From a virus, in the IMG/VR virus record IMGVR_UViG_3300017978_000154, positions 7,367 through 71,366 of that record: a DNA stretch of 64,000 nt; one strand, written 5' to 3'. The notes under the pieces are model-generated. The model ran no database searches and was not told where the DNA came from. It was given only the letters and a program-made list of their open reading frames with translations. This document shows positions 5,806 through 62,743 of this stretch, piece by piece. The position numbers and the translations under genes were made by a program. The first letter of the stretch is position 1. Each line of letters starts with the position of its first letter.

Positions 5806-5855
5806 TTTCTTATCTCCTAAGAATACATACAAGCAGACTACCTGCTCATTTCTAT

Positions 5856-16382: not shown

Positions 16383-17063
16383 TTAATTATTGATAATGTC
16401 GTCTACCATAGGGAAGGCTTCAGCAATAGCTTTTGCACACTCTAGAGCGACGTCTCTATGTTCTTCTTGTGTACCGTTTTCTTTACGGAGTTGAATGTAG
16501 TGAATCCAACTGCGGATTGTACCATTCATGTATAAGCGACTTACTGTATTACCTTCTGGTAAGATAGCACGTGCTTGTTCTTTAGCAATACCCTTTTCAA
16601 TAGCTTCAGCATAAGTCGCCTTGACATAATCAATTAGAAACTTTTGCTTAGCATCCCACCACGCTTTTAGGGCAACGTCATTAGTGTGGATGGAGTTTTG
16701 ACGGTTCTTCTGGTCTTGTAGTCTAGCTTCTCTTAGGACAAAGTCTAAGTCCTTAGTTGGATCAGCATAACGTTGGCTGAACTCTTGGAATGAGAATGAA
16801 CGGTGACGAAGAATCTGTCGAGCGATATCACGAGTAGTTTCGATCTCTAGGCATGCTGAGACCATTTCAAGTGGAGACCAGTGTTGGTGTTTGATAAGAT
16901 ACTTGATTAACTTATCAGCTGTGTCCATATTAAATTGGTTAGATGGGTTGCTAACTCTAGCACAGAATGCAATAAGCTCCTGTGCATCGGTCAACCCTTC
17001 ATCATACATACCACGTGCGGGTTTAGAGTAACTAATTAATTTAACTTTCATACTTTTTTCCAA
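16383..17063 (-). CDS. thyX: Flavin-dependent thymidylate synthase ThyX
   Basis: RHRSFSFQEFSQRY matches the ThyX motif RHRx7-8S. 226 aa. Confidence 0.9.
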   Translation of the reverse strand: MEKSMKVKLISYSKPARGMYDEGLTDAQELIAFCARVSNPSNQFNMDTADKLIKYLIKHQHWSPLEMVSACLEIETTRDIARQILRHRSFSFQEFSQRYADPTKDLDFVLREARLQDQKNRQNSIHTNDVALKAWWDAKQKFLIDYVKATYAEAIEKGIAKEQARAILPEGNTVSRLYMNGTIRSWIHYIQLRKENGTQEEHRDVALECAKAIAEAFPMVDDIINN

Positions 17064-24523: not shown

Positions 24524-24562
24524 TTAATCCATCAATAATTAGTAACAGTATTATTTAGCGTA

Positions 24563-27976: not shown

Positions 27977-28012
27977 TAGAATTCCTTTTGATCCATCAAT
28001 ATATCTTTATAT

Positions 28013-29338
28013 TTAGGCTGCGACCAAACCAACTAGTTCGGTCATCATCTTACCCTTTTCAATATAGTGGCGAACATAGTTGTTCTTTGTTTCACCCTTT
28101 AGTCTAACGGTGAATAAGATAGAACCTGTTTTCACGTCTTGAAATCTCACTTCTGGTTTACTTTTATTAGAAACAAAAACTGCTTTTAGTTCTCGGTTCT
28201 TTAGCCTTAGAGCTTGAGCTAAGTTACCAAACTTATAAATCATAGCCTCTTTGTTGCTTAATGATACCATATCCACTGTTGGATCATTTCTGGTTCCAAA
28301 ATACATCAGACCATCAGCAAGGCTCTTGTAAACTGCCTCTTGGTTAGAAGTCATCTTGCGGTTGAACTCAGCAACCATACCTTTGTACACCTCAGTATTT
28401 GCTGCAATTAATCCGTCTGATTTCAGAACCGTGTAATATTTCTTTTCTAGAGCTGGCGAGACTTTTAAATCTAAGAGAGTTTCCCAAAGGTCTTTTTGTT
28501 TATCTAAACCACCACCACCAACTTGGCCAAATTGTTTTGCGCCAGCTGCTTTTAGCGAAACGTTGATATTAACTTTCTTATTATCAATTTCAACGTAAAC
28601 GTCAACCTTGGTGTCATTCTGTGCAACTACACCAATTGCTTTTACTTCTATCCTGTTATATAAGCTGTTTTCATAAACAACTTTTGCGTTTGCAGCAACA
28701 GTAGTTGAGTTGGCGTACTTAACGCTGGAGTTAATAATACTTTTCAAGTTCTTAATATGACGAGGGTTCTTCAACGCTTTAATGTTAATAAGCGCAGAGT
28801 TTACTTCCCAGTACAAATCATCAACAACCTTTGGTTCTTTGTTTGGCGATTTTAATGGACCAATAACCTGTCTTGTGTCAGTATCGTTAAGACGTTTGAT
28901 CATATCCAATACGTCACTATCAATAACAGCTTGGTTCTTATTTAAGAATCGGCAAGCAATAGCTGCGCTAAAGATAATCTCAGCCATATCACCACGGTTG
29001 CTCTTACCACCGAAGTCTTCTGTCTTCATGATATCACTCAGAGGTACTAGAGCAGAAACTTGCCCGTTTCGTTCATACGTTAAGTTGATTTGCTTAAATG
29101 AAACTGAACCTGCTCGAATAACGTTGGCGATGTCAGCAGAGTCTGCCAAGTCAAGTGCGTTCTTAGAAACCAGTTTACCAGTACGTGGGTCTGGATAAGA
29201 GATTCGATTGAATGGTTGTTGTTTACCGTCCGCAGTGGTAAACGGAGATTTTACACCTTCAATCAGTTTTTCAAGCAGGGCAATGATACGTGTTTCGCCG
29301 TGCTTACCTTTAAAATCTTTTACAGCCAGTTTAGCCAT
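28013..29338 (-). CDS. Hypothetical 441-aa protein
   Basis: ORF track. No recognisable motif except a Gly-rich GQVGGGG segment. Confidence 0.4.
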   Translation of the reverse strand: MAKLAVKDFKGKHGETRIIALLEKLIEGVKSPFTTADGKQQPFNRISYPDPRTGKLVSKNALDLADSADIANVIRAGSVSFKQINLTYERNGQVSALVPLSDIMKTEDFGGKSNRGDMAEIIFSAAIACRFLNKNQAVIDSDVLDMIKRLNDTDTRQVIGPLKSPNKEPKVVDDLYWEVNSALINIKALKNPRHIKNLKSIINSSVKYANSTTVAANAKVVYENSLYNRIEVKAIGVVAQNDTKVDVYVEIDNKKVNINVSLKAAGAKQFGQVGGGGLDKQKDLWETLLDLKVSPALEKKYYTVLKSDGLIAANTEVYKGMVAEFNRKMTSNQEAVYKSLADGLMYFGTRNDPTVDMVSLSNKEAMIYKFGNLAQALRLKNRELKAVFVSNKSKPEVRFQDVKTGSILFTVRLKGETKNNYVRHYIEKGKMMTELVGLVAA

Positions 29339-29340
29339 TA

Positions 29341-30048
29341 CTATCCCTTATTGACATACTGACTATTTAGTTTATATTTCCTATCCCACTTAACAATATG
29401 CTGCATTAGTTTTGGTATGGCATAATTGTTTTTAAAATCGTAATCAAAGGTCTTAAGGATATAATGTAGCGTTGAAGAGTCTCGTTTGTTATTGACTCTG
29501 GCCAATAAAGTTTCTAATGAAACGTTTGGTCTGTTCATTTTAAAGTCTAGATAGACACAATGAGCGTATGCTTGTATCTCATCAAACTCAGATAGGTATG
29601 AACGTTCAGCGTCTTTTAGAGAGTGTCCAACCTTCTTGTGCGGTAGGACATAATTACTGTACTCGTCATTGCGACGATCGTACTGCATGAAGTGGATCAT
29701 CTCATGCATTAAGGTTTGTATGACACGGTACTTGAATTTGTTCCAAGTCTTGACTTCAAATTTATGTTTATCGAAGTCAAAAGAATATATCTGGATACAA
29801 CATTGACGGTCATCTGGAGAATACTCGCCACCGACAGCAACGTATTTTGACCACGATTTCTTCAGAGGTTGTCTGAACTCTACTTTAGTTCTCCACTTCT
29901 TAAAGTAGTTGGAGAGACCGACGGAGTTATTTTCATACTCGTCTAGGTCTCTCCATATTTTTGATGGGTTGAGTTTAGCTCGGAATGGACGCTCAGTGAA
30001 GTTGAGCATTTCCATCCAGTCAAAGTTAGATTGTTCTAGGAAATTCAT
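29341..30048 (-). CDS. Putative zinc metallopeptidase-like protein (HExxH)
   Basis: TLMHEMIHFMQY contains HEMIH. N-terminus MNFLEQ resembles the neighbouring CTS-like N-termini. Confidence 0.35.
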   Translation of the reverse strand: MNFLEQSNFDWMEMLNFTERPFRAKLNPSKIWRDLDEYENNSVGLSNYFKKWRTKVEFRQPLKKSWSKYVAVGGEYSPDDRQCCIQIYSFDFDKHKFEVKTWNKFKYRVIQTLMHEMIHFMQYDRRNDEYSNYVLPHKKVGHSLKDAERSYLSEFDEIQAYAHCVYLDFKMNRPNVSLETLLARVNNKRDSSTLHYILKTFDYDFKNNYAIPKLMQHIVKWDRKYKLNSQYVNKG

Positions 30049-30072: not shown

Positions 30073-30678
30073 TTACCCTAATTGTCCTTCTAGGAAGGCT
30101 AAGACTTTCGCTTGTTCCTCTAAGTTAGTATTTGCAAACTCAGTAATATAAGGCATCAAGTCAAAATTTGATAACAGGTTACTATATTTAGTTTCGCGAC
30201 CTCTTAGGAATTGCTCGGACTGATCAGAACCACGATCTTTATATCGCTGTTCGAGAACTGTCTTAGGTGCGTTCAGGAATACGATATGAAGCTCGGTATC
30301 TGGGAGACCCATGGCGAACTCTAGGAAAGACTGATTGAAGATACGGTCACCTTCAAATAGAACGTTACAGTTATGGGAAGCGATCCACTCCTGCATGGCT
30401 GGCTGAACTGCCATAGAAAGACGGTCGGTTCCAGCGAACACTTCGCCTTCTTCATACTTACCAAGGATGTATAGATCACGCTCAGTATTATACATGGCTG
30501 AAACTAGCTTGGCTGGTTCAACTGGTTGGAATACTTTACTTTCCATATACTTACGGAACAACGTGGTCTTGCCAGTTCCTGGGCTACCACCAACAGCAAT
30601 AAGTTTTCTCACTTTTTTCTCCGCTCTAATAAGTTGAATGGTGACTTCATCATTCGCTTTAATTTTATCAATGAACAT
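30073..30678 (-). CDS. P-loop kinase (candidate nucleic-acid/nucleotide kinase; candidate 5-hydroxymethylpyrimidine DNA kinase by context)
   Basis: Walker A AVGGSPGTGKTT. About 200 aa. Sits in an operon with the modification-type genes. Confidence 0.55.
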   Translation of the reverse strand: MFIDKIKANDEVTIQLIRAEKKVRKLIAVGGSPGTGKTTLFRKYMESKVFQPVEPAKLVSAMYNTERDLYILGKYEEGEVFAGTDRLSMAVQPAMQEWIASHNCNVLFEGDRIFNQSFLEFAMGLPDTELHIVFLNAPKTVLEQRYKDRGSDQSEQFLRGRETKYSNLLSNFDLMPYITEFANTNLEEQAKVLAFLEGQLG

Positions 30679-31105
30679 TATTCAGTAACTCTTTCAATTC
30701 TTCATCAGTGAATACCCAAACACGACCGATGAAGTGATGAACGTCAGCATCCTTATCGTGTTTCTTTTTGAACATAACCTTCTTGGCAATATCACGTGCT
30801 AAGTTCTTGGCGATGTTCTCTTTAATCTCAGAGGCATAATCAGGGGCAACCTCTTGTAGCTTCAATAGCTCTTGAGCAGTTACTTTATGATCAACAGCGA
30901 TACGGTTGAGGCTATGCTCATCCATAATCTCATCCACTGTGCGTGTAATCTTTGGGAGAGGTGTAGCAGCAGTCATAGCATTATGAGCCGACCAACTACT
31001 AATACCAATTGGTGCAAGACCGCTATTTGTTACAACAGAATAATTGCCGTCGCTTAATGTAAGACTTCCTTGCATCACATCATTTAATACGTCATCTGGG
31101 TTCAT
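30668..31105 (-). CDS. Hypothetical protein
   Basis: ORF track. Overlap-coupled to both neighbours. Confidence 0.35.
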   Translation of the reverse strand: MNPDDVLNDVMQGSLTLSDGNYSVVTNSGLAPIGISSWSAHNAMTAATPLPKITRTVDEIMDEHSLNRIAVDHKVTAQELLKLQEVAPDYASEIKENIAKNLARDIAKKVMFKKKHDKDADVHHFIGRVWVFTDEELKELLNNVH

Positions 31106-32121
31106 GTAAACATCTCCAATCCCATTAAGGGTTTTTCTTCATCTTCAAACATCCATTCTAAGTTATCTATTTTACCTGAGTTCAGGAAGAAAGTAAACTT
31201 TTCTTTATTGATGCCATTCTTGTGGTCTAGTCGCAAGTCGATTGTTTCATTTCGAGATTGCCACATAACATTCCAATCAATACCATACCATCCATCACCT
31301 TCAGCTTTGATAATCTCTTCAGCTTGACGGTCAAGGTAATATCCAAGATAGCGACCGTGCTTTGCTCTAAAGATTTTCTTGAAAGAACACAGACAGGTTT
31401 CCATAGTAAAGAAGTCAATTTGATTTGCTAGTTCAGGAAACCTGTCTAGCATTTCAACCCTGATTCCCTCGCCAAATGCTTCAAGGTCTCCATACTCGCT
31501 TCCAGTGAGTTTTCGATCAACATCGTTATCACGCCCAGCGGCAAAAAGTAATCCATTACGATGAGAACGGGAACCATCATAATCATCCAACATAAGAGAA
31601 CTAGGCTCAATGTTAATACCAGCAGTGTGCTTAAGATGCTGCATATAGAACCAAGTAGAATAACGACCAAACTTATGAAGCCTTGACTTAAGAACGCTCC
31701 ACAGAGCATCAAAGTTTTCTTTAGCATCACCGACGTAGTACGATTCGAGTGTTTCACGTTGAGTCTTCTTTCCAATAAAATTTTGATACGATTCAAACAT
31801 TGCTGGAAGATGACCCTTGTTCCATTTCGTATCAGTCTGGTAACGGAGTCGTTTGTAGTTGGTTGTATTCCATTGAGTGATACGATCTACCGTGGCAAGT
31901 TCGTAGTCAGGGAATTCGTTCTTAAGAACCCAAGCAGTTGGCAGTTGATATGTGTTACCATACAACCAAGCGAACCAAATACGTTCTTCGTCATTATGTT
32001 CATAACGTTTATGAAGATAGTTTGTAGCCCAAACCGCTGGGTCACAGTCATCATATTTCATTGACCATGCGTACCAGCGGATGAAGGCTTCTCTTCTGTT
32101 TTCTTTATTTCGATAATCCAT
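31102..32121 (-). CDS. Uncharacterised W/Y-rich 339-aa protein; candidate base-modifying transferase (aGPT-Pplase-like) by context only
   Basis: No catalytic motif recognised by eye. Placed between the P-loop kinase and the ParB-like gene in the same operon. Confidence 0.3.
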   Translation of the reverse strand: MDYRNKENRREAFIRWYAWSMKYDDCDPAVWATNYLHKRYEHNDEERIWFAWLYGNTYQLPTAWVLKNEFPDYELATVDRITQWNTTNYKRLRYQTDTKWNKGHLPAMFESYQNFIGKKTQRETLESYYVGDAKENFDALWSVLKSRLHKFGRYSTWFYMQHLKHTAGINIEPSSLMLDDYDGSRSHRNGLLFAAGRDNDVDRKLTGSEYGDLEAFGEGIRVEMLDRFPELANQIDFFTMETCLCSFKKIFRAKHGRYLGYYLDRQAEEIIKAEGDGWYGIDWNVMWQSRNETIDLRLDHKNGINKEKFTFFLNSGKIDNLEWMFEDEEKPLMGLEMFT

Positions 32122-33460
32122 CTCGTGTCACAATGTTGTGATTAAATGGGTGCGCAAAGAAGATGTTAATCTTACTTTTAACACCGTGTGTTAAAATATT
32201 ATCCAGCTTTTTAAGGACACTGTCAGCTTCTGTCAAATAACCAACGATACTCTTAAAGTGAATAATTATATTCGCTTCGTTCTTACCACCTTTAACGAAG
32301 TTCTCAACCGCATAAGCAATAGCACCACCAATACCACCGTTATTCACCCCATCAAGAGATTGGTAAATAACAGGCAGACCATTATTATGTGTAGATTGTT
32401 GCCAGTAACGAGCAAGAGTAGCAGTGCTGTAATCAATGAAGTTTTGTTCATTCTTTGAACGAGCAAGGGCTTCAGCGGTTGCTTCAGCTAACTGGTCGCA
32501 TTTACGAATGACGTCAGAGTTAAGCCACATACCACCCTTCTTAGTACCTTTACCACCAAGATCTTCTTTGGCGATTGCTTTGAAACCAACGCTGTCGAAA
32601 CTGTGTGATGGGTAACGTGCTTGAAGTTCGCGAAGACGCATCACCAAGTCATCAAGTGTATTACCAGTGCGTTCAGCTTCGACATGGTTCATCAAGTTGC
32701 CAAAGATATTGAAGTTATACGCATCATTATCAAAGTGAGAGTAATCAACTTTGATAACAGGGAATGTATCCCAACCAGCAACAGAAGCAGCATTGACACG
32801 ATGGTTACCATCAAGCAACATAATGATACGACCGTTGGCGTCAACTAAAACAATAACTGGGGTGATATGCTTTCTAGCAAATCCTGGCGTTTTAAACGCA
32901 GTAATCAGAGAAGAAAGTTTGTCTTGTTTTAACTTGAATGCACGTGCTTGGTTGTGGTTGGTTATGTATAGCGTATGTACAGATTCTTCTGTTACAGGGA
33001 ATTCTTCAGTACCACCTTCTTTCCATTTTTCAATGGCTTCAGTAACCTTTCCCCACAGTTCAATCAGTTCAGGTGTTTTGGTTTTCTTCTCGAGGATAAG
33101 GTCGCTTGGGTCAAACCACTCACCAGTTTCAACCCACTTTGTAACATTGTCAACATGTTCTTTTACTGGACGGAATGATCGAACGACGCCTGGTCCGCCA
33201 CCATTAGTTTTATTATAGAACTGTTTAGAATTCTTTGCGTCAAACAAACTCAAAAAGAAATACTCTTGGTTGTACATTTCTTCTTTTGTGCCGTGCGCAA
33301 GAATAACACGCTCAATTAGGTCTTGGTGGATGGCTTCTTTGAGGAACCGATTAGTCGAGGATGTAATGTAGTTATCAACGGTCACATCTCCGTTGTGCAC
33401 ACCAATATACTTTTCTTTGGTGTTTACATTAGTCAAGCCGTACAAAATCCAAGTAGACAT
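32105..33460 (-). CDS. ParB/Srx-like domain protein with a GIY-YIG-like N-terminal motif
   Basis: VLVDANGRIIMLLDGNHRVNAA is the ParB N-terminal-domain DGxHR signature. ILYGLTNVNTKEKYIG is a GIY-(n)-YIG-like N-terminus. Confidence 0.45.
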   Translation of the reverse strand: MSTWILYGLTNVNTKEKYIGVHNGDVTVDNYITSSTNRFLKEAIHQDLIERVILAHGTKEEMYNQEYFFLSLFDAKNSKQFYNKTNGGGPGVVRSFRPVKEHVDNVTKWVETGEWFDPSDLILEKKTKTPELIELWGKVTEAIEKWKEGGTEEFPVTEESVHTLYITNHNQARAFKLKQDKLSSLITAFKTPGFARKHITPVIVLVDANGRIIMLLDGNHRVNAASVAGWDTFPVIKVDYSHFDNDAYNFNIFGNLMNHVEAERTGNTLDDLVMRLRELQARYPSHSFDSVGFKAIAKEDLGGKGTKKGGMWLNSDVIRKCDQLAEATAEALARSKNEQNFIDYSTATLARYWQQSTHNNGLPVIYQSLDGVNNGGIGGAIAYAVENFVKGGKNEANIIIHFKSIVGYLTEADSVLKKLDNILTHGVKSKINIFFAHPFNHNIVTRDGLSK

Positions 33461-33521: not shown

Positions 33522-34073
33522 TCAAAACCCTTCTAGAGTCAGGGGTTTCTGGGCTTCAGCGAGGTCAAACACCTCTACGCAGCCACCTTTACCCTTTTTA
33601 TGGATGGCTCCGTTGATCATCTGGTCTGTATAGTCGTAGTCTCCCTCAAAGAAGGTATCACCATCAATTCTAAAAATACTCAGCTGACAACCAGACTTTT
33701 GTTTACCCCAGAACTTGAAACCAATCTTCTCATAGAAGCCAACTGATTCTGGTTCTGACGATACACGGAAGTACAACGCTTGTTTACTTTTAACATGACG
33801 AAGTGATGCTTCACATAATGCTTTGGCTGCTCCCTGACCCCTGTGTTTAGCAAAGGTATGAAGCAGTTGTAGATTAGCAACGAAAGGTTTACGCTTAGAG
33901 ATAGTGGTAATGATAGCAGCCATCAGTTCACCTTCTTCGTTGAAGGCACCGATACAATCATCCCACTGTTCCTGCATGTCTGCTTTGGCCACGAAAGTCT
34001 TAGCAAACTTGTCAGCCTTATCATCAGAGATAGCTTTTATGAATTGGTCACGAGTACACTTATTCAACTTCAA
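33522..34073 (-). CDS. GNAT family N-acetyltransferase
   Basis: HRGQGAAKAL matches the (R/Q)xxGxG/A acetyl-CoA binding motif in a typical about 180-aa fold. Confidence 0.65.
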   Translation of the reverse strand: MKLNKCTRDQFIKAISDDKADKFAKTFVAKADMQEQWDDCIGAFNEEGELMAAIITTISKRKPFVANLQLLHTFAKHRGQGAAKALCEASLRHVKSKQALYFRVSSEPESVGFYEKIGFKFWGKQKSGCQLSIFRIDGDTFFEGDYDYTDQMINGAIHKKGKGGCVEVFDLAEAQKPLTLEGF

Positions 34074-34932
34074 CGTATGTTCTCACTTTCTTACCACGTT
34101 CTTCTGGGTGTTTAGTCTTTTCCCAACCGATGAACTGAGCCAAGTCCCATTGCATTGGTGGGAACTTATAACCACGTTCAGAGATAAGCTCATTGACACT
34201 TGGACCATCATTCAATGCAGCATCAAGGAAGTCTTCAACAAAACGGAAGCATGATTCTAGTTCAGTACGATCTAACGTGCCACGGAACAATCGAAACTCT
34301 ACCGTGTCAATATGCTTCAACGCATACATGTTAATAGCGAAACGGAATGGACGACCCATTGATACACCATCTTTACCTGCGGCGTGCATCTTGATAAAAG
34401 AATCAAAGTCAGTTGCTAGGTTGATAATGTTATCGCTCATGTAGTCAGGCATTGGGCGACCACCATCAAACTTCAGATACATCTTAGAACCTTTGGCACC
34501 CTTCATCTGGTTGTGCTCAAAGAAGCCATATACATGTTCAATGGCTGCAGCTTGGTTCTCTTTGATGTATTTTGTTAGACGCTTCAGTGCATCAATATCA
34601 TCACGAAGACCTGGGACACGGCAATGAATATGGGTATGAGCAGTAACACCAACAGTTGGGTCGTGACCTTGTTCATTGAATAAATCTTTCAGTTCAAAAT
34701 AACGATCAACTTGGTCTTGCCAAGTTCTAGTTGGCTTGGTGTTAATCTCACCACCCATCGGCGGTTCAACACCCAACGGATCGGCGCACACGTTTGCGTA
34801 TGGTGCACGAAGGTTGATAATGTCACGCTCAGAGTATTCCCAAGAACCTAGTTGTTCCGGAATTGAAAAAGAGCGGGGAACATCTCCCCACTCTATCTCC
34901 ATGCCATATGTAAAATCACTTTTGTTGTACAT
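34060..34932 (-). CDS. Glutamine-synthetase-like amidoligase (putative amidoligase family)
   Basis: EIEWGD, HTHIH and FRLFRGTLD conserved-residue pattern of GS/GCS2-type amidoligases. Start placed at MYNKSDF (AAGGA RBS); track start at 34962. Confidence 0.45.
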   Translation of the reverse strand: MYNKSDFTYGMEIEWGDVPRSFSIPEQLGSWEYSERDIINLRAPYANVCADPLGVEPPMGGEINTKPTRTWQDQVDRYFELKDLFNEQGHDPTVGVTAHTHIHCRVPGLRDDIDALKRLTKYIKENQAAAIEHVYGFFEHNQMKGAKGSKMYLKFDGGRPMPDYMSDNIINLATDFDSFIKMHAAGKDGVSMGRPFRFAINMYALKHIDTVEFRLFRGTLDRTELESCFRFVEDFLDAALNDGPSVNELISERGYKFPPMQWDLAQFIGWEKTKHPEERGKKVRTYVEVE

Positions 34933-35623
34933 TCTGTAAATCCTTGTTTCCTGTTTTAACAAGTTGCATTCTCATAGTTAGACCAGAGTCAAACGTAATA
35001 TATGTGTCCATTGGAATTTCCATGTTTGGAAAATACAAATTAGCACGTTTGGCAATATCTGCTGTAGAGGTAATTATACTACCATTCGATAGAGTAGTCA
35101 AATATAATGGACGCTTACCATTGCGATAAACAGTCAACTCTTTAGGAGAAGCCGTGAGAGTACAAACTGCCATGGACATATTGTTGAACTCATCAAGAGG
35201 ATCGTTTGAATGCAGGACTAACTCAGAATCATTCTTTGTTGCGCAGTCATAACCATACAACTCTTTCCAGTGTTCTGGAAGCTCTTGAGTGATAACACCA
35301 TTGTGGACAATTGATTTGTCTGCATTGGCCATAGGTTGGTTATATTCCAAATCAGATGTCGAGTAACGACAGTGACCGATCAGATATAAGTTACCATCCT
35401 TGTTAATGAACTCTTTGAAGTTGTCGTTATGCATATGCTTCTCAACGAACTGATCCGCTGGGATAGCTTCCTTAATTGTAACAATATCATCAGTCCACTT
35501 TGGTAAGAATGACATACCTGTTGCGTGCATACCACGAATCTTAGACTCGACGAACACACGCTTCAGGGCTTCAAAATCCTTCAGAGAAGGATTCTTAATA
35601 ACTGCTCCAATTACGGCACACAT
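34916..35623 (-). CDS. Class-II (Ntn) glutamine amidotransferase domain protein
   Basis: MCAVIG: Cys directly after the initiator Met is the hallmark of GATase type 2 N-terminal nucleophile enzymes (PurF/GlmS/AsnB type). Confidence 0.6.
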   Translation of the reverse strand: MCAVIGAVIKNPSLKDFEALKRVFVESKIRGMHATGMSFLPKWTDDIVTIKEAIPADQFVEKHMHNDNFKEFINKDGNLYLIGHCRYSTSDLEYNQPMANADKSIVHNGVITQELPEHWKELYGYDCATKNDSELVLHSNDPLDEFNNMSMAVCTLTASPKELTVYRNGKRPLYLTTLSNGSIITSTADIAKRANLYFPNMEIPMDTYITFDSGLTMRMQLVKTGNKDLQNVQQK

Positions 35624-36996
35624 TAGGAAAAGAACTCATCTAGTGAAGAAGCATTAGATTCTGGATGCATCTTCAAGGTTTCTGCTTCGCCAACTTCTTT
35701 CTTACAGAAGTCATACCACTCTTGGCTTTCCCACATTCCAGCGTACACACCGTTAAAGCGTGGGCGATAATGAGGGTTGTTAACATCGTTCTTGCAGTGA
35801 TCAACGAACTTACGACGAGCATTTTCATACTCCATAGAACCAAGAGTCAACATACCTTCGTGGAAGAATGCAATGATAGAGATACGTTCAGCATTAGGGT
35901 CATCCAGAATCAATTCAGTATTACCATGCAGACCAGCCATGTTATTAACGAACAGTAAATCACCTGGACGAATGTTAACAGCATAACCAATCTCGGGGAA
36001 TACCAAGTAAGCACCTCTATAATTATCAGAGTTACTAAACACGCAGATATTAGCGAAACCATCATCCATATTTGCGGGGTCATAGTGGGCTGCAGTTCTG
36101 AAGTTACGGTTTACAGTAATTGTACTGAATGGAGTATTTGGGACCAAGAAGCGTGGATCAATCTTATCCGCAGCAGCTTTCTGGTTACCATAACGCCATG
36201 GCAACAATTCCTCAAACGCTTTAGACAAGTGTTGGAGATATGGATAAGACTTCTTGAACTTATCGAATTGCTTCTCAGTGTAAGAAGTTGCACGACCATA
36301 AGGGATACGTGGATAACGATCGTACCAACCAGCAATACCAGAGTTCACTGGGTTTGCATATGTAGTCTTGGAGATTAGGTTATCTTCAACCCAAGCTGCA
36401 TCGGCTGAAGCGTCAGCTGCAGGTTTACGGCGAGTTGTTTCAACCCAGTCATCAAATTGGAACCCAGCATCTGCAACCGAATCGCGAAGCCATACTTGAG
36501 CACGGTTAGACGCTTGGTCACGACCTTCGGCATATTTAGTTTGGATAGCTTCAATCGGGTCTTCACCCAACAAGTTACCAGCACCCTTCTTAAAGGCTTC
36601 AATGATATCCCATTGATACGCTGTAACCCAGTCGCGACCTTGTAGCTTCTCACCACGTGGACCAGCAGCAGTACCACGGTTCTGAGTTTCAGTAGCTGCG
36701 TCACGAAGACCTTCGTAAGCAGACTTTGTCATTTCATCACTGAAGTAGTTCTTACGGAACTTGAAAACAATCTTACGTTCATCAAGTGCCTTGGAGCAAC
36801 CACTACACGCCTTTTCACAATTTGGGTCAGACAGGTCAGTTGCACAAGAAGCAGGAAGGTACAAGTCCATGTCAGACTCAACCAATGTATGGTAATGGCG
36901 TTCATCAAGCCAAGTACCAACTAGGTCTGGACGAGGAACAACCTCAGGGGCTTCCAATACAACAACTTTCACATTTCTACCAGCATCAACACTCAT
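35623..36996 (-). CDS. 2-oxoglutarate/Fe(II)-dependent dioxygenase-like protein with an N-terminal Cys-cluster domain. Candidate nucleic-acid base hydroxylase
   Basis: AAHYDPANMDDG ... GLHGNTEL ... RISIIAFF gives an HxD...H...RxS double-stranded beta-helix pattern. N-terminal CATDLSDPNCEKACSGCSK. Confidence 0.5.
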   Translation of the reverse strand: MSVDAGRNVKVVVLEAPEVVPRPDLVGTWLDERHYHTLVESDMDLYLPASCATDLSDPNCEKACSGCSKALDERKIVFKFRKNYFSDEMTKSAYEGLRDAATETQNRGTAAGPRGEKLQGRDWVTAYQWDIIEAFKKGAGNLLGEDPIEAIQTKYAEGRDQASNRAQVWLRDSVADAGFQFDDWVETTRRKPAADASADAAWVEDNLISKTTYANPVNSGIAGWYDRYPRIPYGRATSYTEKQFDKFKKSYPYLQHLSKAFEELLPWRYGNQKAAADKIDPRFLVPNTPFSTITVNRNFRTAAHYDPANMDDGFANICVFSNSDNYRGAYLVFPEIGYAVNIRPGDLLFVNNMAGLHGNTELILDDPNAERISIIAFFHEGMLTLGSMEYENARRKFVDHCKNDVNNPHYRPRFNGVYAGMWESQEWYDFCKKEVGEAETLKMHPESNASSLDEFFS

Positions 36997-37007
36997 TTCG
37001 TTTCTCC

Positions 37008-38402
37008 TTAAAACTTAAATCCGCTAAAATTCTCAGACTGCATTCTGGAACCAAAACCACTCTTATCAAATAATGGTTTGTCATCTTTGACGTGTCCAGC
37101 GTCAGCCAAGCCTTCTTGGGCAGATGCTTCAACATCATATAATTTCATCTTACTTCTATCAATACCAACCACAAATCGTTTATAGTAATTTGGGTCGTTG
37201 TAACGGTTCTTCAACTGCTTGACGATAATCTGATTCAGGTTTTCTAGTTCTTCACTTGAAACCAAAGCAAACATAAAGTCAGCTGTCGCAGGTAGACCGA
37301 ACGATTCAGAAGTATCTTCAAGTCCTGGGTCTGAACTACCATATCCAGAACGGGTAGTTTGTGTGGCTGAAACAATGGGTACATTATATTCAACCGCTAG
37401 ACCACGAAGCTCTTCAGCAATCGCTTTCACAAACGTATATGAATTAACATTCGCACCAGCTTTCATCCTCTGAGAGGAACAAATATTTAGATAATCTATA
37501 AACACGATATCTGGAACAAATTCACGTTTGAGTTTAAGTTCTTCTAGCAATGCACGGAAGTGACCAGCATGAGCAGAAGCAGTTGGATATTCTTTGACGA
37601 TTAGTTTACCCTGTGTCTTTTTCTTCAGTTTATCAATGCGTGATTCAAAGATGTCTTTGTCGACAACCTTCAATTCATCCATAGTCAAGTTCAAAAGGTT
37701 TGCGTCAATACGTTCAGCGATACGTTCTTCTGACATTTCCATAGTAATGTAGAGAACGTTACGACCTGCAGTTAGTGCGCCAGCTGCAACGTGACACATA
37801 AACAAGGACTTACCAACACCAGTACCAGCCAGTGCGATGTTCAAAGTCTTACGGCTCAGACCACCCTTGGTAATCTTGTTGAACATATCCAAGTCGAATG
37901 GAATCTTCTCTTCAATGCGATGATAAAAGTCATAGCGATGAGCGAAGTCATCCAAGTAGTCGTGACCCACATGGCTGTCAAAAGATACAGCAAGTGCGTC
38001 AGATAATAGGTGAGGGATTGCGTCTTGTCCATGCGTGGGATCTTTACCCTCAAAGATCTTAATGGAGTTCATGATAGCCAAATAAACGGCTCGGTCTTTA
38101 CAGAACTTCTCAGTGCTTGTAAGTAACCAGTCTTCGTTTACGGGTGCCTTGACCAAAGTCTTGATGTACTCGCCAATGTCGCCAACTTCTTTGTCGGTAA
38201 CACCTTTTGCGTTTGAAACTTCAATCGCTAGAATTTCAGGTGTTAGGGATTTATTGTATTTGTTAAAGAAGTCGATGATCTCAGTGATGATCACCGATTC
38301 TTTACGATCGGAAAAATACTCACGCTTTAGGAATGGAATGACCTTACGACAATAGTGCTCATCATGAATCAAATTACTCAGAATTTGTTGTTCGATTCTC
38401 AT
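37008..38402 (-). CDS. Replicative DNA helicase (T4 gp41-like, DnaB family)
   Basis: N-terminus MRIEQQILSNLIHDEHYCRKVIPFL aligns with T4 gp41 MVEIILSHLIFDQAYFSKVWPYM. Walker A GTGVGKS. Confidence 0.85.
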   Translation of the reverse strand: MRIEQQILSNLIHDEHYCRKVIPFLKREYFSDRKESVIITEIIDFFNKYNKSLTPEILAIEVSNAKGVTDKEVGDIGEYIKTLVKAPVNEDWLLTSTEKFCKDRAVYLAIMNSIKIFEGKDPTHGQDAIPHLLSDALAVSFDSHVGHDYLDDFAHRYDFYHRIEEKIPFDLDMFNKITKGGLSRKTLNIALAGTGVGKSLFMCHVAAGALTAGRNVLYITMEMSEERIAERIDANLLNLTMDELKVVDKDIFESRIDKLKKKTQGKLIVKEYPTASAHAGHFRALLEELKLKREFVPDIVFIDYLNICSSQRMKAGANVNSYTFVKAIAEELRGLAVEYNVPIVSATQTTRSGYGSSDPGLEDTSESFGLPATADFMFALVSSEELENLNQIIVKQLKNRYNDPNYYKRFVVGIDRSKMKLYDVEASAQEGLADAGHVKDDKPLFDKSGFGSRMQSENFSGFKF

Positions 38403-38679: not shown

Positions 38680-39746
38680 TCTTCGTGGTCCAATTCAGCA
38701 AGTTCTTTGTCGATAGACTCATCACTTACCATTTCAATTTGACCAATTGAATACTTGTCCTTAACGAAGTCATAGAATGACTTTGTTTGTAACACTGGCA
38801 TCCAGAATTCTTTGGTATCGGTATCTTTGATTCGATACTTCTTGTCTTCGACTTCACCAGTCTCAACATTTACCTTTGAATACCAACCATTGCTAGGCTT
38901 GATAACATGTCCTGATTCGAGTGCAAGATCAAGTAGACCGCTCCACTTGCTAATACCACCGTCAAAAGATACGGACACAGGGATTTTAGATTTTTCTTTA
39001 ACATGACGAGATTTTTCAACGTTGATAATAAAGTTGTAGCCGACGACTTCAGTACCTTCTTTTTCTTGCTGACGACCTAAGATGTAGATGTTATCAGCAG
39101 AGTAATACGAACCAGTACCACCACCAACGATAGCTTTCGGGAACATACCAATTTCCATGTAGGTGTGGTTAACAACTACCATTGGAATATCTTTCAAAGT
39201 CAAGTGCGGTGTTACCATACGGAACAAAGACTTCAACTGTTTGGCACGGGACATATCCGCAACAGACTTACCGTCTAACGCATCTTCAACTTCTTTCTTA
39301 GAAGCCAAGTTACCGATAGAATCAATAACAATCATCACACGCTCACCACGTTCGATATTTTGTAATTGTTGCATACAGTCAAACTTCAACTGTTCGATGT
39401 CAGTGATTGGAGTATGGATAACCTTCTCAGTATCAATACCGAAAGCATCGAAGTAAGATTGTGGTGTACCAAACTCAGAGTCATAGAACAAGATAACTGA
39501 ATCTGGGTACTTGTCCTGATATGCTTTAGCCATCAGCAAAGAGAATGCAGTCTTAAAGTGCTTAGATGGACCAGCCCACATAGTTAGTCCAGGAGTCAAT
39601 CCACCATCAAAGCGACCAGATAAAGCCACGTTGATAACTGGGATTGAAGTTGGGATCATATCCTTCTTAGTGAAGAATTTAGATCCAGAAAGGATAGCAG
39701 TATCCTTGATTGTGGAGTTCTTTTTGATTTTGTCAAGTAAGCTCAT
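38676..39746 (-). CDS. uvsX: Recombinase UvsX (RecA/Rad51 family)
   Basis: MSLLDKIKKNSTIKDTAILSGSKFF aligns with the T4 UvsX N-terminus. Walker A region GPSKHFKT. Confidence 0.9.
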   Translation of the reverse strand: MSLLDKIKKNSTIKDTAILSGSKFFTKKDMIPTSIPVINVALSGRFDGGLTPGLTMWAGPSKHFKTAFSLLMAKAYQDKYPDSVILFYDSEFGTPQSYFDAFGIDTEKVIHTPITDIEQLKFDCMQQLQNIERGERVMIVIDSIGNLASKKEVEDALDGKSVADMSRAKQLKSLFRMVTPHLTLKDIPMVVVNHTYMEIGMFPKAIVGGGTGSYYSADNIYILGRQQEKEGTEVVGYNFIINVEKSRHVKEKSKIPVSVSFDGGISKWSGLLDLALESGHVIKPSNGWYSKVNVETGEVEDKKYRIKDTDTKEFWMPVLQTKSFYDFVKDKYSIGQIEMVSDESIDKELAELDHEE

Positions 39747-39997
39747 TATTCACCCTTCATAAATTTCAAAACAGCAGCTTCATTCATAACGCCAGAAACA
39801 CGACGTTGTTCTAAGCCTTTTTCATCCACCAAGATCATAGTGGGAACACCACGGATGCCATATTGTTTGGCTAACTCCATGTTATCATCAATATCAATTT
39901 CTTCCAACTGTACTGGAAGTTCTCCCATGTCACCAATAACGGTGCTCAATGCTTTACATGGTCCGCACCAAGATGCGCTAAATTTTAATACTTTCAT
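39746..39997 (-). CDS. Thioredoxin
   Basis: WCGPCK active site. Start placed at MKVLKF (AAAGGAAAT RBS). Confidence 0.8.
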   Translation of the reverse strand: MKVLKFSASWCGPCKALSTVIGDMGELPVQLEEIDIDDNMELAKQYGIRGVPTMILVDEKGLEQRRVSGVMNEAAVLKFMKGE

Positions 39998-40013
39998 ATA
40001 TTTCCTTTGTGTC

Positions 40014-52577: not shown

Positions 52578-52886
52578 TTAAATTTCTTTAGAATATTTCA
52601 CGTCATGTTCATACAAGAACATTAAGCAACACATTGCGTGAGCCAAGTGGTGAATACCAGATTCTGGGTCAACCTGTTCACCCATCTTCCATGCCCACAC
52701 GTGCCTTTGCATAGCAGCAAAGTAACGACGTTTGGAGTCAGGAACAAGCTGCCAATTATCGGGAGCATATTTCTGAGCACCAAACGTCAGAACCTTCACC
52801 ATTTCCTCTTGGGCTAGAGGTGGAATAAGATCGTAGCGAAGTTTGTCGCCATCGAACTTACGTCCAGTAGGAAGGTTTTCGCTCAT
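52578..52886 (-). CDS. Hypothetical protein
   Basis: ORF track only. Confidence 0.3.
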   Translation of the reverse strand: MSENLPTGRKFDGDKLRYDLIPPLAQEEMVKVLTFGAQKYAPDNWQLVPDSKRRYFAAMQRHVWAWKMGEQVDPESGIHHLAHAMCCLMFLYEHDVKYSKEI

Positions 52887-60759: not shown

Positions 60760-61230
60760 CTAATGTACTGTATCGTTACCTTCCATAACGGAAAGCATAA
60801 CGTCTAGTTCTTCTTCTGGAATGTCTCCTCCAGCGATAGCTTCAAGCATCTCGATCCTTCGGTTGATCTCGTCTATCGTGAGATGCTCTGCATCGTCGAA
60901 GTATTCGCTGAGCTTCTCTTGGATGGAAGATCTCGTTGTTGGAATCAACGCTTCTTCGTAAGACTTTATAAAGTTTTTGTAATGCGAGATAAATTGCGAA
61001 TGCAACTTCTTAATGTAAACGATATGTCCCTTTTCAAGAACGAACGTTGTCGCATCAGAGAACTGGCATAGTGGAGATGCCGATATTGATTCTCGTCCCA
61101 GCTCTGGGATTATTGTAGTCTTGATTTGAATAGGGTAATCAATCTTGACATGTTTCTCGTCTTCACCCTCAAAAGTTGCCATTACTGTTTCACCAGAAAT
61201 TAGTTTGACAACAACATACTGCTTATCCAT
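60760..61230 (-). CDS. Hypothetical protein
   Basis: ORF track only. Confidence 0.35.
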   Translation of the reverse strand: MDKQYVVVKLISGETVMATFEGEDEKHVKIDYPIQIKTTIIPELGRESISASPLCQFSDATTFVLEKGHIVYIKKLHSQFISHYKNFIKSYEEALIPTTRSSIQEKLSEYFDDAEHLTIDEINRRIEMLEAIAGGDIPEEELDVMLSVMEGNDTVH

Positions 61231-62743
61231 ATAAGTTCACTTCCACCATTTTCAATTTAAATTCTTCTTCAACATACGTTTTGTAGCGTTCAGCTGCATG
61301 ATTCAACGTATGATTCTTCCAAGACTTCCAATGCAAGTCATCTGCAATATCGTACAAGTTGCAGGCAACCTTTCCATCTTTCAAACGCAAACCTCTACCA
61401 ATAGATTGAAGGTTACGAATCTTTGACTTACTTGGCGAAGCAAAGATAACGTTCTCAATAGAAGGAATATTAATACCTGTCGAGAAAGTTCCATATGAAG
61501 CGATGATAATCGCATCACTTTCTTTTTCTGTAATATGACGAATTGATTCACGATCAGTAACGTCAGTGCCACCGTGTACAAAGAATACGTGGCGACCTTC
61601 CTTTACTTTATTACTTATAAGATCGTATAGAACTTTGCCGTGCTTTTCAACGTATTGAAAAAGAACCAGCGTATTGCCGTTAGAATTTACTGCCAGGTTA
61701 CGGATAAACTTGTTACGCTTTTCATTGCCAACAAGAAAGTCCATTTCATCTTGGTATGTGTTCTTATTACGTTCTTTACGAATCTCTTCGCTATATTTCA
61801 TTATCAGACACGTTATATTTAGCGCAGATAATTTCCCTGAATCCATTAGTGCTTTGGTAGTGGTTACACGGTGTACTGGTCCAAACACACCTTCAAGCAC
61901 TAGCTGGTGAATCTTCTTGTTATCTAACGTGCCAGTTGTACCAATACGGTGCTCAACTGTATCAAGTTTCTCCATGATAGTTGTCAACGATTTAGCTTTA
62001 AATTGGTGAGCCTCATCACCAAAGATAACATCAAACTGTTTGAACCATGACTTAGGTTGCAGGTAGATAGACTGCCATGTAGTGATCAGTACGTCTTTGG
62101 TAAACTCTTTAGGGAAACCGCTGTATAGTTTCTGACAGTGGTTCTTAACATCAAAACCGTTAGCTGAAGAGTAGTCTTCAAAGTCAGCATACATTTGCTC
62201 AACAAGCGAAGTAGTTGGTACAATCAAAACGATCTTACGTTTGTTATTGATATGCCAACGCATTGTGCTGTAAATGATTAGCGACTTACCTGATGCCGTT
62301 GGAGATAACAGTAATGTACGTTGCTTATTCAAAGCAGTGTATACAGCTTCAAGTTGATAGTCTCGGATTTCAATAGGTTGTCCGCGACCTCTTAAGTTTA
62401 ACCAATCGGTAAACTCTTTGATGACGTCCATACTAACTTCTTCATTGCCACCAAACACTCTACCTTTTGATTGTAATTCATAACCGTTACGTTCACAGAA
62501 CTTCTCTAGGTATTCATACAAACCAATGTATAAGGTTTTACGGAATTGATCATACAAGCGTACCTTACCGTCCCACAACCGTGCTTTAAATTGTGGAGTA
62601 AACCTTGCTCCTGGGTATTCGTAAGTAAAGAAGTCTGCTAGTTCTTGTTCAACGGAAGCGTCGCCAAAAACACGCATGTAAACTTCATCTAGTTTTTCTG
62701 CGTATAAAGTAGTCATTACATACCAGCTAAGAATCTCTTCCAC
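61223..62743 (-). CDS. uvsW: UvsW helicase (SF2, DEAH)
   Basis: FTPQFKARLWDGKVRLYD...LEKFCERNGY aligns with T4 UvsW FNPRFRYGNWDGRIRLLD...IKKFCDNFGY. LLLSPTASGKS and GDEAHQF motifs. Confidence 0.85.
   Translation of the reverse strand: MEEILSWYVMTTLYAEKLDEVYMRVFGDASVEQELADFFTYEYPGARFTPQFKARLWDGKVRLYDQFRKTLYIGLYEYLEKFCERNGYELQSKGRVFGGNEEVSMDVIKEFTDWLNLRGRGQPIEIRDYQLEAVYTALNKQRTLLLSPTASGKSLIIYSTMRWHINNKRKIVLIVPTTSLVEQMYADFEDYSSANGFDVKNHCQKLYSGFPKEFTKDVLITTWQSIYLQPKSWFKQFDVIFGDEAHQFKAKSLTTIMEKLDTVEHRIGTTGTLDNKKIHQLVLEGVFGPVHRVTTTKALMDSGKLSALNITCLIMKYSEEIRKERNKNTYQDEMDFLVGNEKRNKFIRNLAVNSNGNTLVLFQYVEKHGKVLYDLISNKVKEGRHVFFVHGGTDVTDRESIRHITEKESDAIIIASYGTFSTGINIPSIENVIFASPSKSKIRNLQSIGRGLRLKDGKVACNLYDIADDLHWKSWKNHTLNHAAERYKTYVEEEFKLKMVEVNLYG

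What the first reader, a model, noticed from the sequence alone, without database searches (positions are those of the whole stretch)
35623..36996. 2OG/Fe(II) dioxygenase-like protein with an N-terminal Cys cluster as candidate nucleobase hydroxylase
The C-terminal half shows an HxD...H...RxS pattern (HYDPANMDDG ... HGNTEL ... RISIIAFF) typical of double-stranded beta-helix dioxygenases. The N-terminal 260 aa carry C-x8-C-x3-C-x2-C, a possible Zn or nucleic-acid binding module. No dUMP/dCMP hydroxymethylase (ThyA-like) is visible in the window, so an oxygenase of this kind could provide the primary oxidised base (for example T to 5hmU, JBP-like) that the downstream kinase and transferase would act on.
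Basis: inference. Interest (0 to 1): 0.65.

Follow-up and report, generated by a model that had tools for sequence, protein, structure and literature searches.

The report
Phage TET/JBP-type thymine dioxygenase gene
This gene of an uncultured T4-like phage encodes a TET/JBP-family DNA base oxygenase that most likely turns thymine in the phage's own DNA into 5-hydroxymethyluracil, the first step of a DNA "hypermodification" pathway; the reading is right, but this kind of system was already predicted in 2021 and shown experimentally in 2026.

The parts
35623..36996 (-). Tet_JBP-family (5mYOX) Fe(II)/2OG dioxygenase gene, 457 aa. A GGAG Shine-Dalgarno lies 7 nt upstream of the ATG, directly after the DnaB stop codon. 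Its stop codon overlaps the next gene's start (TAATG).
36796..36846 (-). Cys4 loop C51-x8-C60-x3-C64-x2-C67. The spacers vary. The loop has low model confidence and is absent in P0108 and DLP6.
36367..36639 (-). Helical insertion, aa 120-210. It is the least conserved segment and folds on its own. It probably corresponds to the 'variable insertion' domain of published phage 5mYOXs, but is about twice as long.
36286..36366 (-). Most conserved stretch, aa 211-237 (TTYANPVNSGIAGWYDRYPRIPYGRAT). It lies just ahead of the Pfam domain and is shared with the roughly 300-aa phage Tet/JBP proteins.
35857..36291 (-). Pfam Tet_JBP oxygenase domain, aa 236-380. It carries the Fe(II) ligands H304, D306 and H357 and the 2OG-binding residue R371 (RxS).
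35626..35856 (-). Conserved helical C-terminal extension, aa 381-457.
34916..35623 (-). Class-II (Ntn) glutamine amidotransferase domain protein, 235 aa.
34060..34962 (-). Amidoligase_2-like protein, 300 aa. The Pfam hit here is weak; the family call is clearer in relatives.
33522..34073 (-). GNAT acetyltransferase, 183 aa.
32105..33460 (-). Protein with a GIY-YIG-like N-terminus, a ParB/Srx-like N-domain (DGNHR) and an unknown C-terminal half, 451 aa. It occurs only sporadically among related loci.
31102..32121 (-). Amino acid:DNA transferase (Pfam ADDT = aGPT-Pplase), 339 aa. It is about 28% identical to the clade-2 enzyme of ViI-like phages.
30668..31105 (-). Conserved 145-aa protein of unknown function between the transferase and the kinase.
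30073..30678 (-). P-loop nucleobase kinase (Pfam Ploopntkinase3), 201 aa, a candidate 5-hmdU DNA kinase.
29341..30048 (-). 235-aa protein with an HEMIH motif (weak SprT-like hit) that travels with the cluster in relatives.
16383..17063 (-). ThyX flavin-dependent thymidylate synthase. The phage makes dTMP, so thymine is available in its DNA.

Best explanation
The gene encodes a phage 5-methylpyrimidine dioxygenase of the TET/JBP family. It binds Fe(II) through H304, D306 and H357 and binds 2-oxoglutarate through R371. After replication it hydroxylates the C5-methyl group of thymine in the phage's own DNA to give 5-hydroxymethyluracil. The co-transcribed P-loop kinase then phosphorylates that hydroxyl to give 5-PmdU. 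The amino-acid:DNA transferase displaces the phosphate with an amino acid. The GATase, amidoligase and GNAT then tailor the appended group into a still unknown hypermodified thymidine that presumably shields the DNA from host nucleases. Shown here: family membership, fold, conservation of the catalytic residues, operon structure, conserved synteny, and the absence of any methyltransferase or hydroxymethylase family hit in the ORFs scanned. Inferred: the substrate (T rather than 5mC), the order of the steps, and the biological role.
For: Family and fold:
- Pfam Tet_JBP 81.6 bits, cut-off 34.9.
- A profile of the family hits TET2 in the PDB at E=1e-5, with AHxDxxNMxxG aligned.
- AF2 model pLDDT 80.5.
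- H304, D306, H357 and R371 are invariant in 46 sequences.

Operon:
- The genes from DnaB to the SprT-like gene are packed with overlaps or small gaps. The TET stop overlaps the GATase start.

Synteny:
- Of 32 related viral loci with at least 5 kb downstream of the TET gene, 20 have GATase plus ADDT and 22 have the kinase.
- An 86%-identical relative carries precomputed Pfam labels Tet_JBP, GATase_6, Amidoligase_2, ADDT and Ploopntkinase3 in the same order.

Fusions:
- A Tet_JBP+Ploopntkinase3 fusion (P0243) and Tet_JBP+TAGT glycosyltransferase fusions exist.

Substrate:
- No C5-MT and no ThyA-like family was hit in 79 scanned ORFs.
- ThyX is present.

Literature:
- M6 gp54 and its homologues phosphorylate 5-hmdU in DNA (PMC8989533).
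- Metavirome contigs that lack a dUMP hydroxymethylase carry Tet_JBP next to T-hypermodification genes.
- Phage 5mYOXs oxidise T to 5hmU in vivo and in vitro, and one subclass is 'consistently linked' with GATases, P-loop kinases and AADTs (PMC13229309).
Against: The window covers only 64 kb of a genome that is probably 150-170 kb, so a C5-methyltransferase or a dUMP hydroxymethylase could lie outside it. The base-contacting position 3 residues after the HxD is Asn (N309), as in TET2, so the motif alone does not separate T from 5mC. Burke et al. also raised the possibility that a kinase plus aGPT-Pplase could act on 5hmC. Some clade C1 phage enzymes without a ParB were inactive in E. coli assays.
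Confidence: 0.75

Rival explanations
1. It is a thymine dioxygenase that is inactive on double-stranded DNA by itself. It needs the ParB-like protein encoded four genes downstream (32105..33460) as an activator, like the published ParB-dependent subclass (5mYOX176/ParB176). This is a variant of the mechanism rather than a different identity.
For: - A protein with a ParB/Srx-type N-domain (DGNHR) sits inside the operon. The supporting hits are weak: ParB_N E=0.031, TIGR00180 6e-4, PHROG ParB 6e-4. Nine of 19 family members hit ParB_N, the best at 4e-5.
- The published ParB-dependent subclass has the same neighbours (GATase, P-loop kinase, AADT) and a C-terminal extension. This protein has a conserved 77-aa C-terminal extension.
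Against: - The ParB-like gene is found in only 6 of 82 related loci, and only 21 homologues turn up among 5.8 billion proteins, against 2272 for the dioxygenase.
- An 86%-identical dioxygenase sits in an operon with no ParB.
- The gene has a GIY-YIG homing-endonuclease-like N-terminus (PHROG 314, 1e-10), so it may be a selfish insertion.
- A profile of the family finds no ParB in the PDB.
- The published 5mYOX-associated ParBs are described as an NBD plus a CTD, with no nuclease domain mentioned.
Confidence: 0.25
2. It is a TET-type 5-methylcytosine dioxygenase. A cytosine-C5 methyltransferase from the host, or encoded outside the window, supplies 5mC. The enzyme makes 5hmC, which the kinase and transferase then hypermodify.
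For: - The closest solved structures are 5mC dioxygenases.
- The TET2-like Asn is kept at HxD+3.
- Characterised phage TETs of clades A and B act on 5mC, and Burke et al. suggested that a P-loop kinase plus aGPT-Pplase might process 5hmC in some contigs.
- 5mYOX97 and 5mYOX176 oxidise both T and 5mC in vitro.
Against: - No DNA methyltransferase family was hit in 79 scanned ORFs of the window.
- None appears in the precomputed Pfam labels of the two related loci read in full, nor among the ten flanking ORFs of L014 and L017 that were scanned.
- Phage 5mC-TETs have an adjacent cognate C5-MT, and only 6% of mined 5mYOX pathways co-occur with one.
- The ADDT is homologous to the thymidine-pathway enzyme of ViI-like phages.
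- The phage carries its own ThyX.
Confidence: 0.1
3. It is a 2OG oxygenase acting on something other than DNA bases (RNA, a free nucleotide, a protein or a small molecule), or it is a catalytically dead structural relative.
For: Only generic points support this. 2OG oxygenases are versatile, no biochemical data exist for this 450-aa subfamily, and some related clade C1 enzymes were inactive in heterologous assays.
Against: - All Fe and 2OG ligands are invariant.
- The gene has conserved linkage, and occasional fusion, with DNA-base kinases, DNA transferases and TET-associated glycosyltransferases.
- It sits within the replication module next to DnaB, UvsX and the DNA polymerase.
Confidence: 0.04

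Closest known systems
Phage thymine dioxygenases (5mYOX clades C1 and C2; e.g. 5mYOX176/ParB176, 5mYOX97, TET89), O'Toole et al. PNAS 2026 (PMC13229309) and Burke et al. PNAS 2021 (PMC8256090)
   Same: Both are Tet_JBP-domain enzymes of phage origin with no adjacent C5-MT. The neighbourhood matches: GATase, P-loop kinase, AADT and, in this window, a ParB-like gene. Both have an insertion ahead of the DSBH core and a C-terminal extension. Roughly 280-aa viral Tet/JBP models superpose inside this model at TM 0.81. Proteins of about 300 aa share 35-41% identity over residues 204-397.
   Different: This protein is 457 aa, against about 290-300 aa for the characterised enzymes. It has an extra 70-aa N-terminal segment carrying a Cys4 loop. 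Its helical insertion is about 90 aa, against 26-62 aa. ParB is sporadic in this lineage. No member of this 450-aa T4-like-phage group is known to me to have been assayed.
Metavirome Tet/JBP-containing thymidine-hypermodification clusters (Lee et al. NAR 2021, PMC8989533, Fig. 2 sequences 22-25)
   Same: The logic is the same: there is no dUMP hydroxymethylase, and a Tet_JBP protein sits next to the 5-HMUDK kinase, the aGPT-Pplase, and amidoligase and glutamine-amidotransferase genes.
   Different: That paper only described the gene neighbourhoods. Whether this exact locus type is among its four examples cannot be checked here.
Trypanosomatid JBP1/JBP2 thymidine hydroxylases (base J pathway)
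   Same: The proposed chemistry is the same (T to 5hmU in DNA), and the product is then derivatised. Relatives of this protein pair with, or are fused to, a TET-associated glycosyltransferase, which is a base-J-like route.
   Different: Pfam finds no J-binding domain and no SNF2 domain here. The label 'SNF2 DNA repair protein' on the Cr30, DLP6 and S-CBWM1 homologues is not supported. In this window the product is expected to be phosphorylated and aminated rather than glucosylated.
TET2, NgTET1 and CcTet 5-methylcytosine dioxygenases
   Different: Sequence identity is only 10-15%. The TET2 Cys-rich domain is absent, and there is no associated methyltransferase. The probable substrate is T rather than 5mC.
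dUMP-hydroxymethylase-based thymidine hypermodification of phages ViI, M6, SP10 and PhiW-14
   Same: The downstream steps match: a 5-hmdU DNA kinase and then an amino-acid:DNA transferase. The ADDT here is about 28% identical over its full length to the clade-2 enzyme of ViI-like phages.
   Different: In those phages 5hmU enters the DNA before replication, as a nucleotide made by a ThyA-like enzyme. Here no such enzyme is seen, ThyX makes dTMP, and the hydroxyl is probably installed on the polymer by the dioxygenase.

Membership tests
TET/JBP (Pfam PF12851, 5mYOX superfamily) | Match to the family HMM above the curated threshold | tested here: met
   81.6 bits against a gathering score of 34.9, E=5e-23, covering model positions 19-164 of 164. 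All top 120 homologues carry PF12851.
TET/JBP (Pfam PF12851, 5mYOX superfamily) | HxD...H Fe(II) triad and a 2OG-binding Arg, conserved across the family | tested here: met
   H304, D306, H357 and R371 are invariant in 46 sequences. The coordinates were verified.
TET/JBP (Pfam PF12851, 5mYOX superfamily) | Double-stranded beta-helix fold closer to TET structures than to other 2OG oxygenases | tested here: met
TET/JBP (Pfam PF12851, 5mYOX superfamily) | Oxidation of a 5-methylpyrimidine within DNA | not testable with these tools
   Needs an enzyme assay or nucleoside mass spectrometry.
Phage T-dioxygenases (5mYOX clades C1/C2, O'Toole 2026) | No neighbouring cytosine-C5 methyltransferase | tested here: met
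   No DNA methyltransferase family was hit in 79 ORFs across the 64-kb window. None is listed in related locus L084.
Phage T-dioxygenases (5mYOX clades C1/C2, O'Toole 2026) | Linkage to thymidine-hypermodification genes (GATase, P-loop kinase, AADT) | tested here: met
   All three are in the same operon. The linkage is conserved in 20-22 of 32 loci with enough flank.
Phage T-dioxygenases (5mYOX clades C1/C2, O'Toole 2026) | Clustering with 5mYOX176, 5mYOX97 or TET89 in a sequence network or tree | not testable with these tools
   The reference sequences are in supplements that are not held.
ParB-dependent subclass of phage T-dioxygenases | Co-localised ParB homologue (NBD plus CTD) required for activity on dsDNA | tested here: inconclusive
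   A ParB_N-like protein is in the operon. However, it carries a GIY-YIG-like N-terminus, occurs in only 6 of 82 related loci, and is absent next to an 86%-identical dioxygenase.
ParB-dependent subclass of phage T-dioxygenases | C-terminal extension beyond the last conserved core residue | tested here: met
   There are 77 residues after the RISIIAFFHE strand. They are predicted helical and include 11 invariant positions.
Phage 5mC dioxygenases (clades A/B, Burke 2021) | Adjacent cognate C5-methyltransferase supplying 5mC | tested here: not met
   No methyltransferase family hit in the window.
JBP2 / 'SNF2 DNA repair protein' (the label on the cultured-phage homologues) | SWI2/SNF2 ATPase domain | tested here: not met
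   Apart from Tet_JBP, the only Pfam hit is a sub-threshold TauD match. The SNF2-type hits in the window belong to UvsW at 61223..62743.

The most novel reading that the evidence does not exclude
The roughly 450-aa proteins found in T4-like aquatic and soil phages may form a third, structurally distinct subclass of phage thymine dioxygenase. Its marks are an added N-terminal segment with a Cys4 (possibly Zn) loop, a doubled helical insertion and a C-terminal extension. It would work without a ParB partner, is wired into the replisome operon (DNA polymerase, UvsX, DnaB, then TET), and would prime a thymidine hypermodification not yet described chemically: an amino-acid adduct further amidated and/or acetylated by the GATase, amidoligase and GNAT cassette. 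That cassette, like the dioxygenase allele itself, is swapped between otherwise nearly identical phages.
Probability: 0.35. Interest if true: 0.55.

Novelty: new member of a known kind. Interest (0 to 1): 0.35.

Why it matters
Post-replicative thymine oxidation lets a phage hypermodify its DNA without re-engineering its nucleotide pool. It is also the presumed evolutionary source of the eukaryotic TET and JBP enzymes. This locus gives a clean, complete example inside a T4-like replication module, with a thymidylate synthase (ThyX) in the same window and none of the known alternative sources of hydroxymethyl-pyrimidine detected. It also shows that the dioxygenase allele and the tailoring cassette are exchanged as modules between near-identical phages. 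The practical value lies in candidate enzymes for 5hmU installation and for new DNA base chemistries. The conceptual novelty is limited, because the pathway logic is published.

Tried and rejected
1. + strand reading of the stated coordinates: full of stops. The gene is on the minus strand.
3. Foldseek against afdb50, to compare with JBP models: the library was unavailable.
4. Direct comparison with 5mYOX176, 5mYOX97 and TET89: no supplementary sequence files are held for the three papers.
5. A profile of the ParB-like family against PDB sequences: no meaningful hit.
6. Exact-sequence look-up of the window protein: not on record.
7. The DLP6 paper, for evidence of restriction-resistant DNA: the relevant sentence is garbled in the held text and gives no usable result.
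8. Cr30 annotation: only about 70 of 156 kb were read. A ThyA-type 'thymidylate synthase' and a dCMP deaminase are present, and no methyltransferase is listed in that part. The annotations are old and unreliable (TET labelled 'SNF2', kinase labelled 'terminase small subunit'), so I did not rely on them.
9. The 'SNF2 DNA repair protein' label: rejected, because there is no SNF2 domain. I first suspected that the roughly 1100-aa relatives were JBP2-like. They turned out to be Tet_JBP+TAGT fusions from metagenomes.
10. Predicting T versus 5mC from the HxD+3 residue: it is Asn in 34 and Asp in 12 of the 46 aligned family members. This is not decisive.
Full report
OBSERVATION. The stated coordinates hold a single long ORF, but it is on the minus strand: 35623..36996, ATG start, 457 aa. 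The plus strand is full of stops.
- HYD (H304, D306; nt 36079-36087)
- HGNTEL...ER (H357 to R371)
- RISIIAFF
- C51-x8-C60-x3-C64-x2-C67 (nt 36796-36846)

A GGAG Shine-Dalgarno lies 7 nt upstream of the ATG, directly after the stop codon of the DnaB-type helicase gene. The ORF's stop codon overlaps the start of the next gene (TAATG).

FAMILY AND FOLD. The protein matches Pfam Tet_JBP (PF12851) at 81.6 bits, against a gathering score of 34.9. The match covers residues 236-380 and nearly the whole model. It also matches PHROG 24024, a family of unknown function, at E=5e-144. A search of 5.8 billion proteins returned 2272 relatives at E<=1e-3. The best 120 are 447-482 aa apart from a few truncated entries, and all carry PF12851. 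In 46 aligned sequences H304, D306, H357 and R371 are invariant. A profile of the family hits only TET2 among PDB sequences (E=1e-5), aligning AHYDPANMDDG with AHRDLHNMQNG.

- then a gap to ALKBH3 (11.7), FTO, AlkB and the prolyl hydroxylases (about 10)

ARCHITECTURE. The 'N-terminal 260 aa' is not a separate module.
- In the full-length model, residues 1-100 are confident apart from the Cys loop. Folded alone as residues 1-240, residues 1-119 fall below pLDDT 50, and only a helical unit at about 120-210 stays confident. So residues 1-100 pack onto the dioxygenase core.
- Column conservation agrees. Residues 120-210 are the least conserved (0.56, 2 invariant positions of 91). Residues 211-237 are the most conserved (0.92).
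- Viral Tet/JBP models of about 280 aa fit inside this model at TM 0.81, normalised to their own length.
- In a search of 1.84 billion cluster representatives, most relatives are 280-340 aa and align to residues ~204-397 at 35-41% identity. About 25 clusters of 430-480 aa align end to end.
- The published phage thymine dioxygenases are about 290-300 aa, with a 'variable insertion' of 26-62 residues and, in one subclass, a C-terminal extension.

This protein therefore looks like that core plus three additions: an extra N-terminal segment carrying the Cys4 loop, an insertion about twice as long, and a conserved 77-residue C-terminal extension.

The four Cys are kept in 45 of 46 sequences, but the whole loop is missing in P0108 and in phage DLP6. 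It is modelled with low confidence. A structural metal site is possible. An essential catalytic or DNA-binding role is unlikely.

CONTEXT IN THE WINDOW. The window is the replication and nucleotide-metabolism region of an uncultured T4-like phage. It encodes DNA polymerase, UvsX, DnaB-type helicase, clamp and clamp loader, RegA, ligase, UvsW, UvsY, gp46/47-like proteins and ribonucleotide reductase.

Directly downstream of the dioxygenase, on the same strand, the genes lie with overlaps or small gaps:
- class-II glutamine amidotransferase domain, 34916..35623
- Amidoligase_2-like protein, 34060..34962
- GNAT acetyltransferase, 33522..34073
- GIY-YIG-like / ParB-N-like protein, 32105..33460
- amino-acid:DNA transferase (Pfam ADDT, E=1.8e-21), 31102..32121
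- 145-aa protein of unknown function, 30668..31105
- Ploopntkinase3 kinase, 30073..30678
- 235-aa HEMIH-motif protein, 29341..30048

The ADDT is about 28% identical over its full length to the clade-2 aGPT-Pplase of ViI-like phages. Pfam scans of 79 ORFs found no DNA methyltransferase family and no ThyA-like family. A ThyX thymidylate synthase is present at 16383..17063 (2.3e-43). The phage therefore makes dTMP, and thymine should be present in its DNA.

CONTEXT IN RELATIVES. Eighty related viral contigs were fetched. The conserved gene order is UvsX, DnaB, TET, GATase, a variable cassette, ADDT, a small ORF, kinase, and the HEMIH protein.
- Of 32 loci with at least 5 kb downstream, 20 have the GATase and ADDT, and 22 have the kinase.
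- An 86%-identical relative on an 83-kb contig has precomputed labels Tet_JBP, GATase_6, a 362-aa unknown, Amidoligase_2, an LMWPc phosphatase, ADDT and Ploopntkinase3. It has no GNAT and no ParB.
- The modules are shuffled. L033 and L031 have flanking genes 91-95% identical to the window, but a dioxygenase only 53% identical (an 'HYDAGDL' allele in place of 'HYDPANM'). L003 keeps the dioxygenase (95%) and the ADDT (97%), but its GATase is 55% and its amidoligase 28% identical. Both dioxygenase alleles thus appear to feed the same downstream enzymes.
- Other relatives, about 55% identical, sit elsewhere in T4-like genomes. They pair with a TET-associated glycosyltransferase (L014) or with a kinase alone (L017).
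- Fusion proteins exist: Tet_JBP+TAGT, and Tet_JBP+Ploopntkinase3 (P0243). The kinase fusion is independent evidence that the dioxygenase product is the kinase substrate.

MECHANISM AND SUBSTRATE. The most likely mechanism has four steps. First, Fe(II)/2OG-dependent hydroxylation of thymine C5-methyl in replicated phage DNA gives 5hmU. Second, the P-loop kinase phosphorylates it to 5-PmdU. Third, the ADDT substitutes the phosphate with an amino acid. Fourth, the GATase, amidoligase and GNAT tailor the adduct.

The kinase and transferase chemistry is established for homologues in phages M6, ViI, SP10 and PhiW-14 (PMC8989533). Phage Tet/JBP enzymes have been shown to oxidise T to 5hmU in vivo and in vitro. 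One subclass was reported to be 'consistently linked' with GATases, P-loop kinases and AADTs (PMC13229309).

T rather than 5mC is inferred from context: no methyltransferase family hit, ThyX present, and a thymidine-pathway transferase. It is not inferred from the active-site sequence, because the base-contacting position HxD+3 is Asn, as in TET2.

THE ParB QUESTION. The published ParB-dependent subclass needs a ParB-like activator on double-stranded DNA. The window has a ParB-N-like protein inside the operon, supported by several weak but concordant hits. Nine of 19 family members hit ParB_N, the best at 4e-5.

Against a required partnership:
- The protein has a GIY-YIG homing-endonuclease-like N-terminus.
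- Only 21 homologues turn up in 5.8 billion proteins.
- It occurs in 6 of 82 related loci.
- It is absent beside an 86%-identical dioxygenase.

I rate a required ParB partnership as possible but less likely than stand-alone activity.

COMPARISON WITH WHAT IS KNOWN, AND NOVELTY. Lee et al. 2021 already described metavirome contigs that lack a dUMP hydroxymethylase and carry a Tet_JBP gene beside the 5-HMUDK kinase, aGPT-Pplase, amidoligase and glutamine-amidotransferase genes. They proposed in-situ T to 5hmU conversion. O'Toole et al. 2026 proved thymine dioxygenase activity for phage enzymes of this superfamily. The finding is therefore a correct identification of a new member of a known kind.

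Several things remain uncharacterised:
- the 450-aa architecture typical of T4-like phages (Cr30, DLP6 and C48C1 carry 41-43% identical copies, mislabelled 'SNF2 DNA repair protein')
- the role of the Cys4 loop
- whether ParB matters in this lineage
- the chemical identity of the final base

LIMITS.
- No activity can be measured here.
- The window is only part of the genome.
- The afdb50 fold library was unavailable.

Noticed in passing
L033 and L031, compared with window 34916-38402: There is allelic replacement of the dioxygenase. The flanking genes (DnaB, GATase, amidoligase, GNAT, ADDT) are 90-96% identical to the window, but the Tet_JBP gene is only 53% identical ('HYDAGDL' allele against 'HYDPANM'). 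In L003 the reverse holds: the dioxygenase is 95% and the ADDT 97% identical, but the GATase is 55% and the amidoligase 28%. Modules are exchanged between near-identical phages.
   Followed up: partly
window 32105-33460 (-): A 451-aa protein combines a GIY-YIG homing-endonuclease-like N-terminus, a ParB/Srx-type N-domain (DGNHR) and an unknown C-terminal half. The family is tiny (21 homologues), and it always sits between the GNAT and the ADDT where present. It could be a selfish endonuclease or a 5mYOX-associated ParB.
   Followed up: partly
P0243, P0179, P0221, P0248, P0162, P0172 (metagenomic relatives): Natural fusions exist: Tet_JBP+Ploopntkinase3, Tet_JBP+TET-associated glycosyltransferase (up to 1145 aa, with about 500 aa of unassigned sequence in between), and tandem double Tet_JBP proteins.
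   Followed up: partly
L014 10001-13077 and L017 10001-11928: In other T4-like contigs a roughly 55%-identical dioxygenase sits between the UvsY and tail-tube genes and the gp23 capsid gene. It pairs with a TAGT glycosyltransferase (a base-J-like route) or with a kinase alone.
   Followed up: partly
L084 12077-14548: An 86%-identical relative replaces the window's amidoligase, GNAT and ParB cassette with a 362-aa unknown protein, an Amidoligase_2 protein and a low-molecular-weight phosphatase (LMWPc). This suggests a different final modification.
   Followed up: no
window 26741-29338 (-): Two large ORFs (411 and 441 aa) have no Pfam, NCBIfam or PHROG assignment. They follow the kinase and HEMIH genes and recur downstream of the cluster in several relatives, so they may be further pathway components.
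   Followed up: no
window 3372-5832 (-): An NAD+ salvage pair is present: a nicotinamide phosphoribosyltransferase (NAMPT) and a bifunctional NMN adenylyltransferase/NUDIX protein.
   Followed up: no
window 22421-26739 (-): Two large proteins carry weak cytidylyltransferase-like domains: one of 700 aa, and one of 592 aa with DUF6267 (E=1.5e-95). A DUF6321 protein lies between them. Their function is unknown.
   Followed up: no
window 55049-57184 (-) and 55817-56947 (+): A 711-aa ORF with no family hit carries a 376-aa ORF on the opposite strand, also without hits.
   Followed up: no
window 52578-52886 (-), 21491-21931 (-), 39746-40054 (-), 12339-12764 (-): Small accessory genes: a dATP/dGTP diphosphohydrolase N-domain protein (1.8e-36), a ferritin-like protein, a thioredoxin-like protein (WCGPC) between UvsX and the DNA polymerase, and a SegE-type GIY-YIG endonuclease.
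   Followed up: no
L001 (Caulobacter phage Cr30), L002 (Stenotrophomonas phage DLP6), S-CBWM1: The homologues in cultured phages are annotated 'SNF2 DNA repair protein', and the Cr30 kinase homologue is annotated 'terminase small subunit' (gp114). Both labels look wrong. Cr30 also carries a distant ADDT-like gene (29% identity) and the kinase within 9 kb of its Tet_JBP gene.
   Followed up: partly
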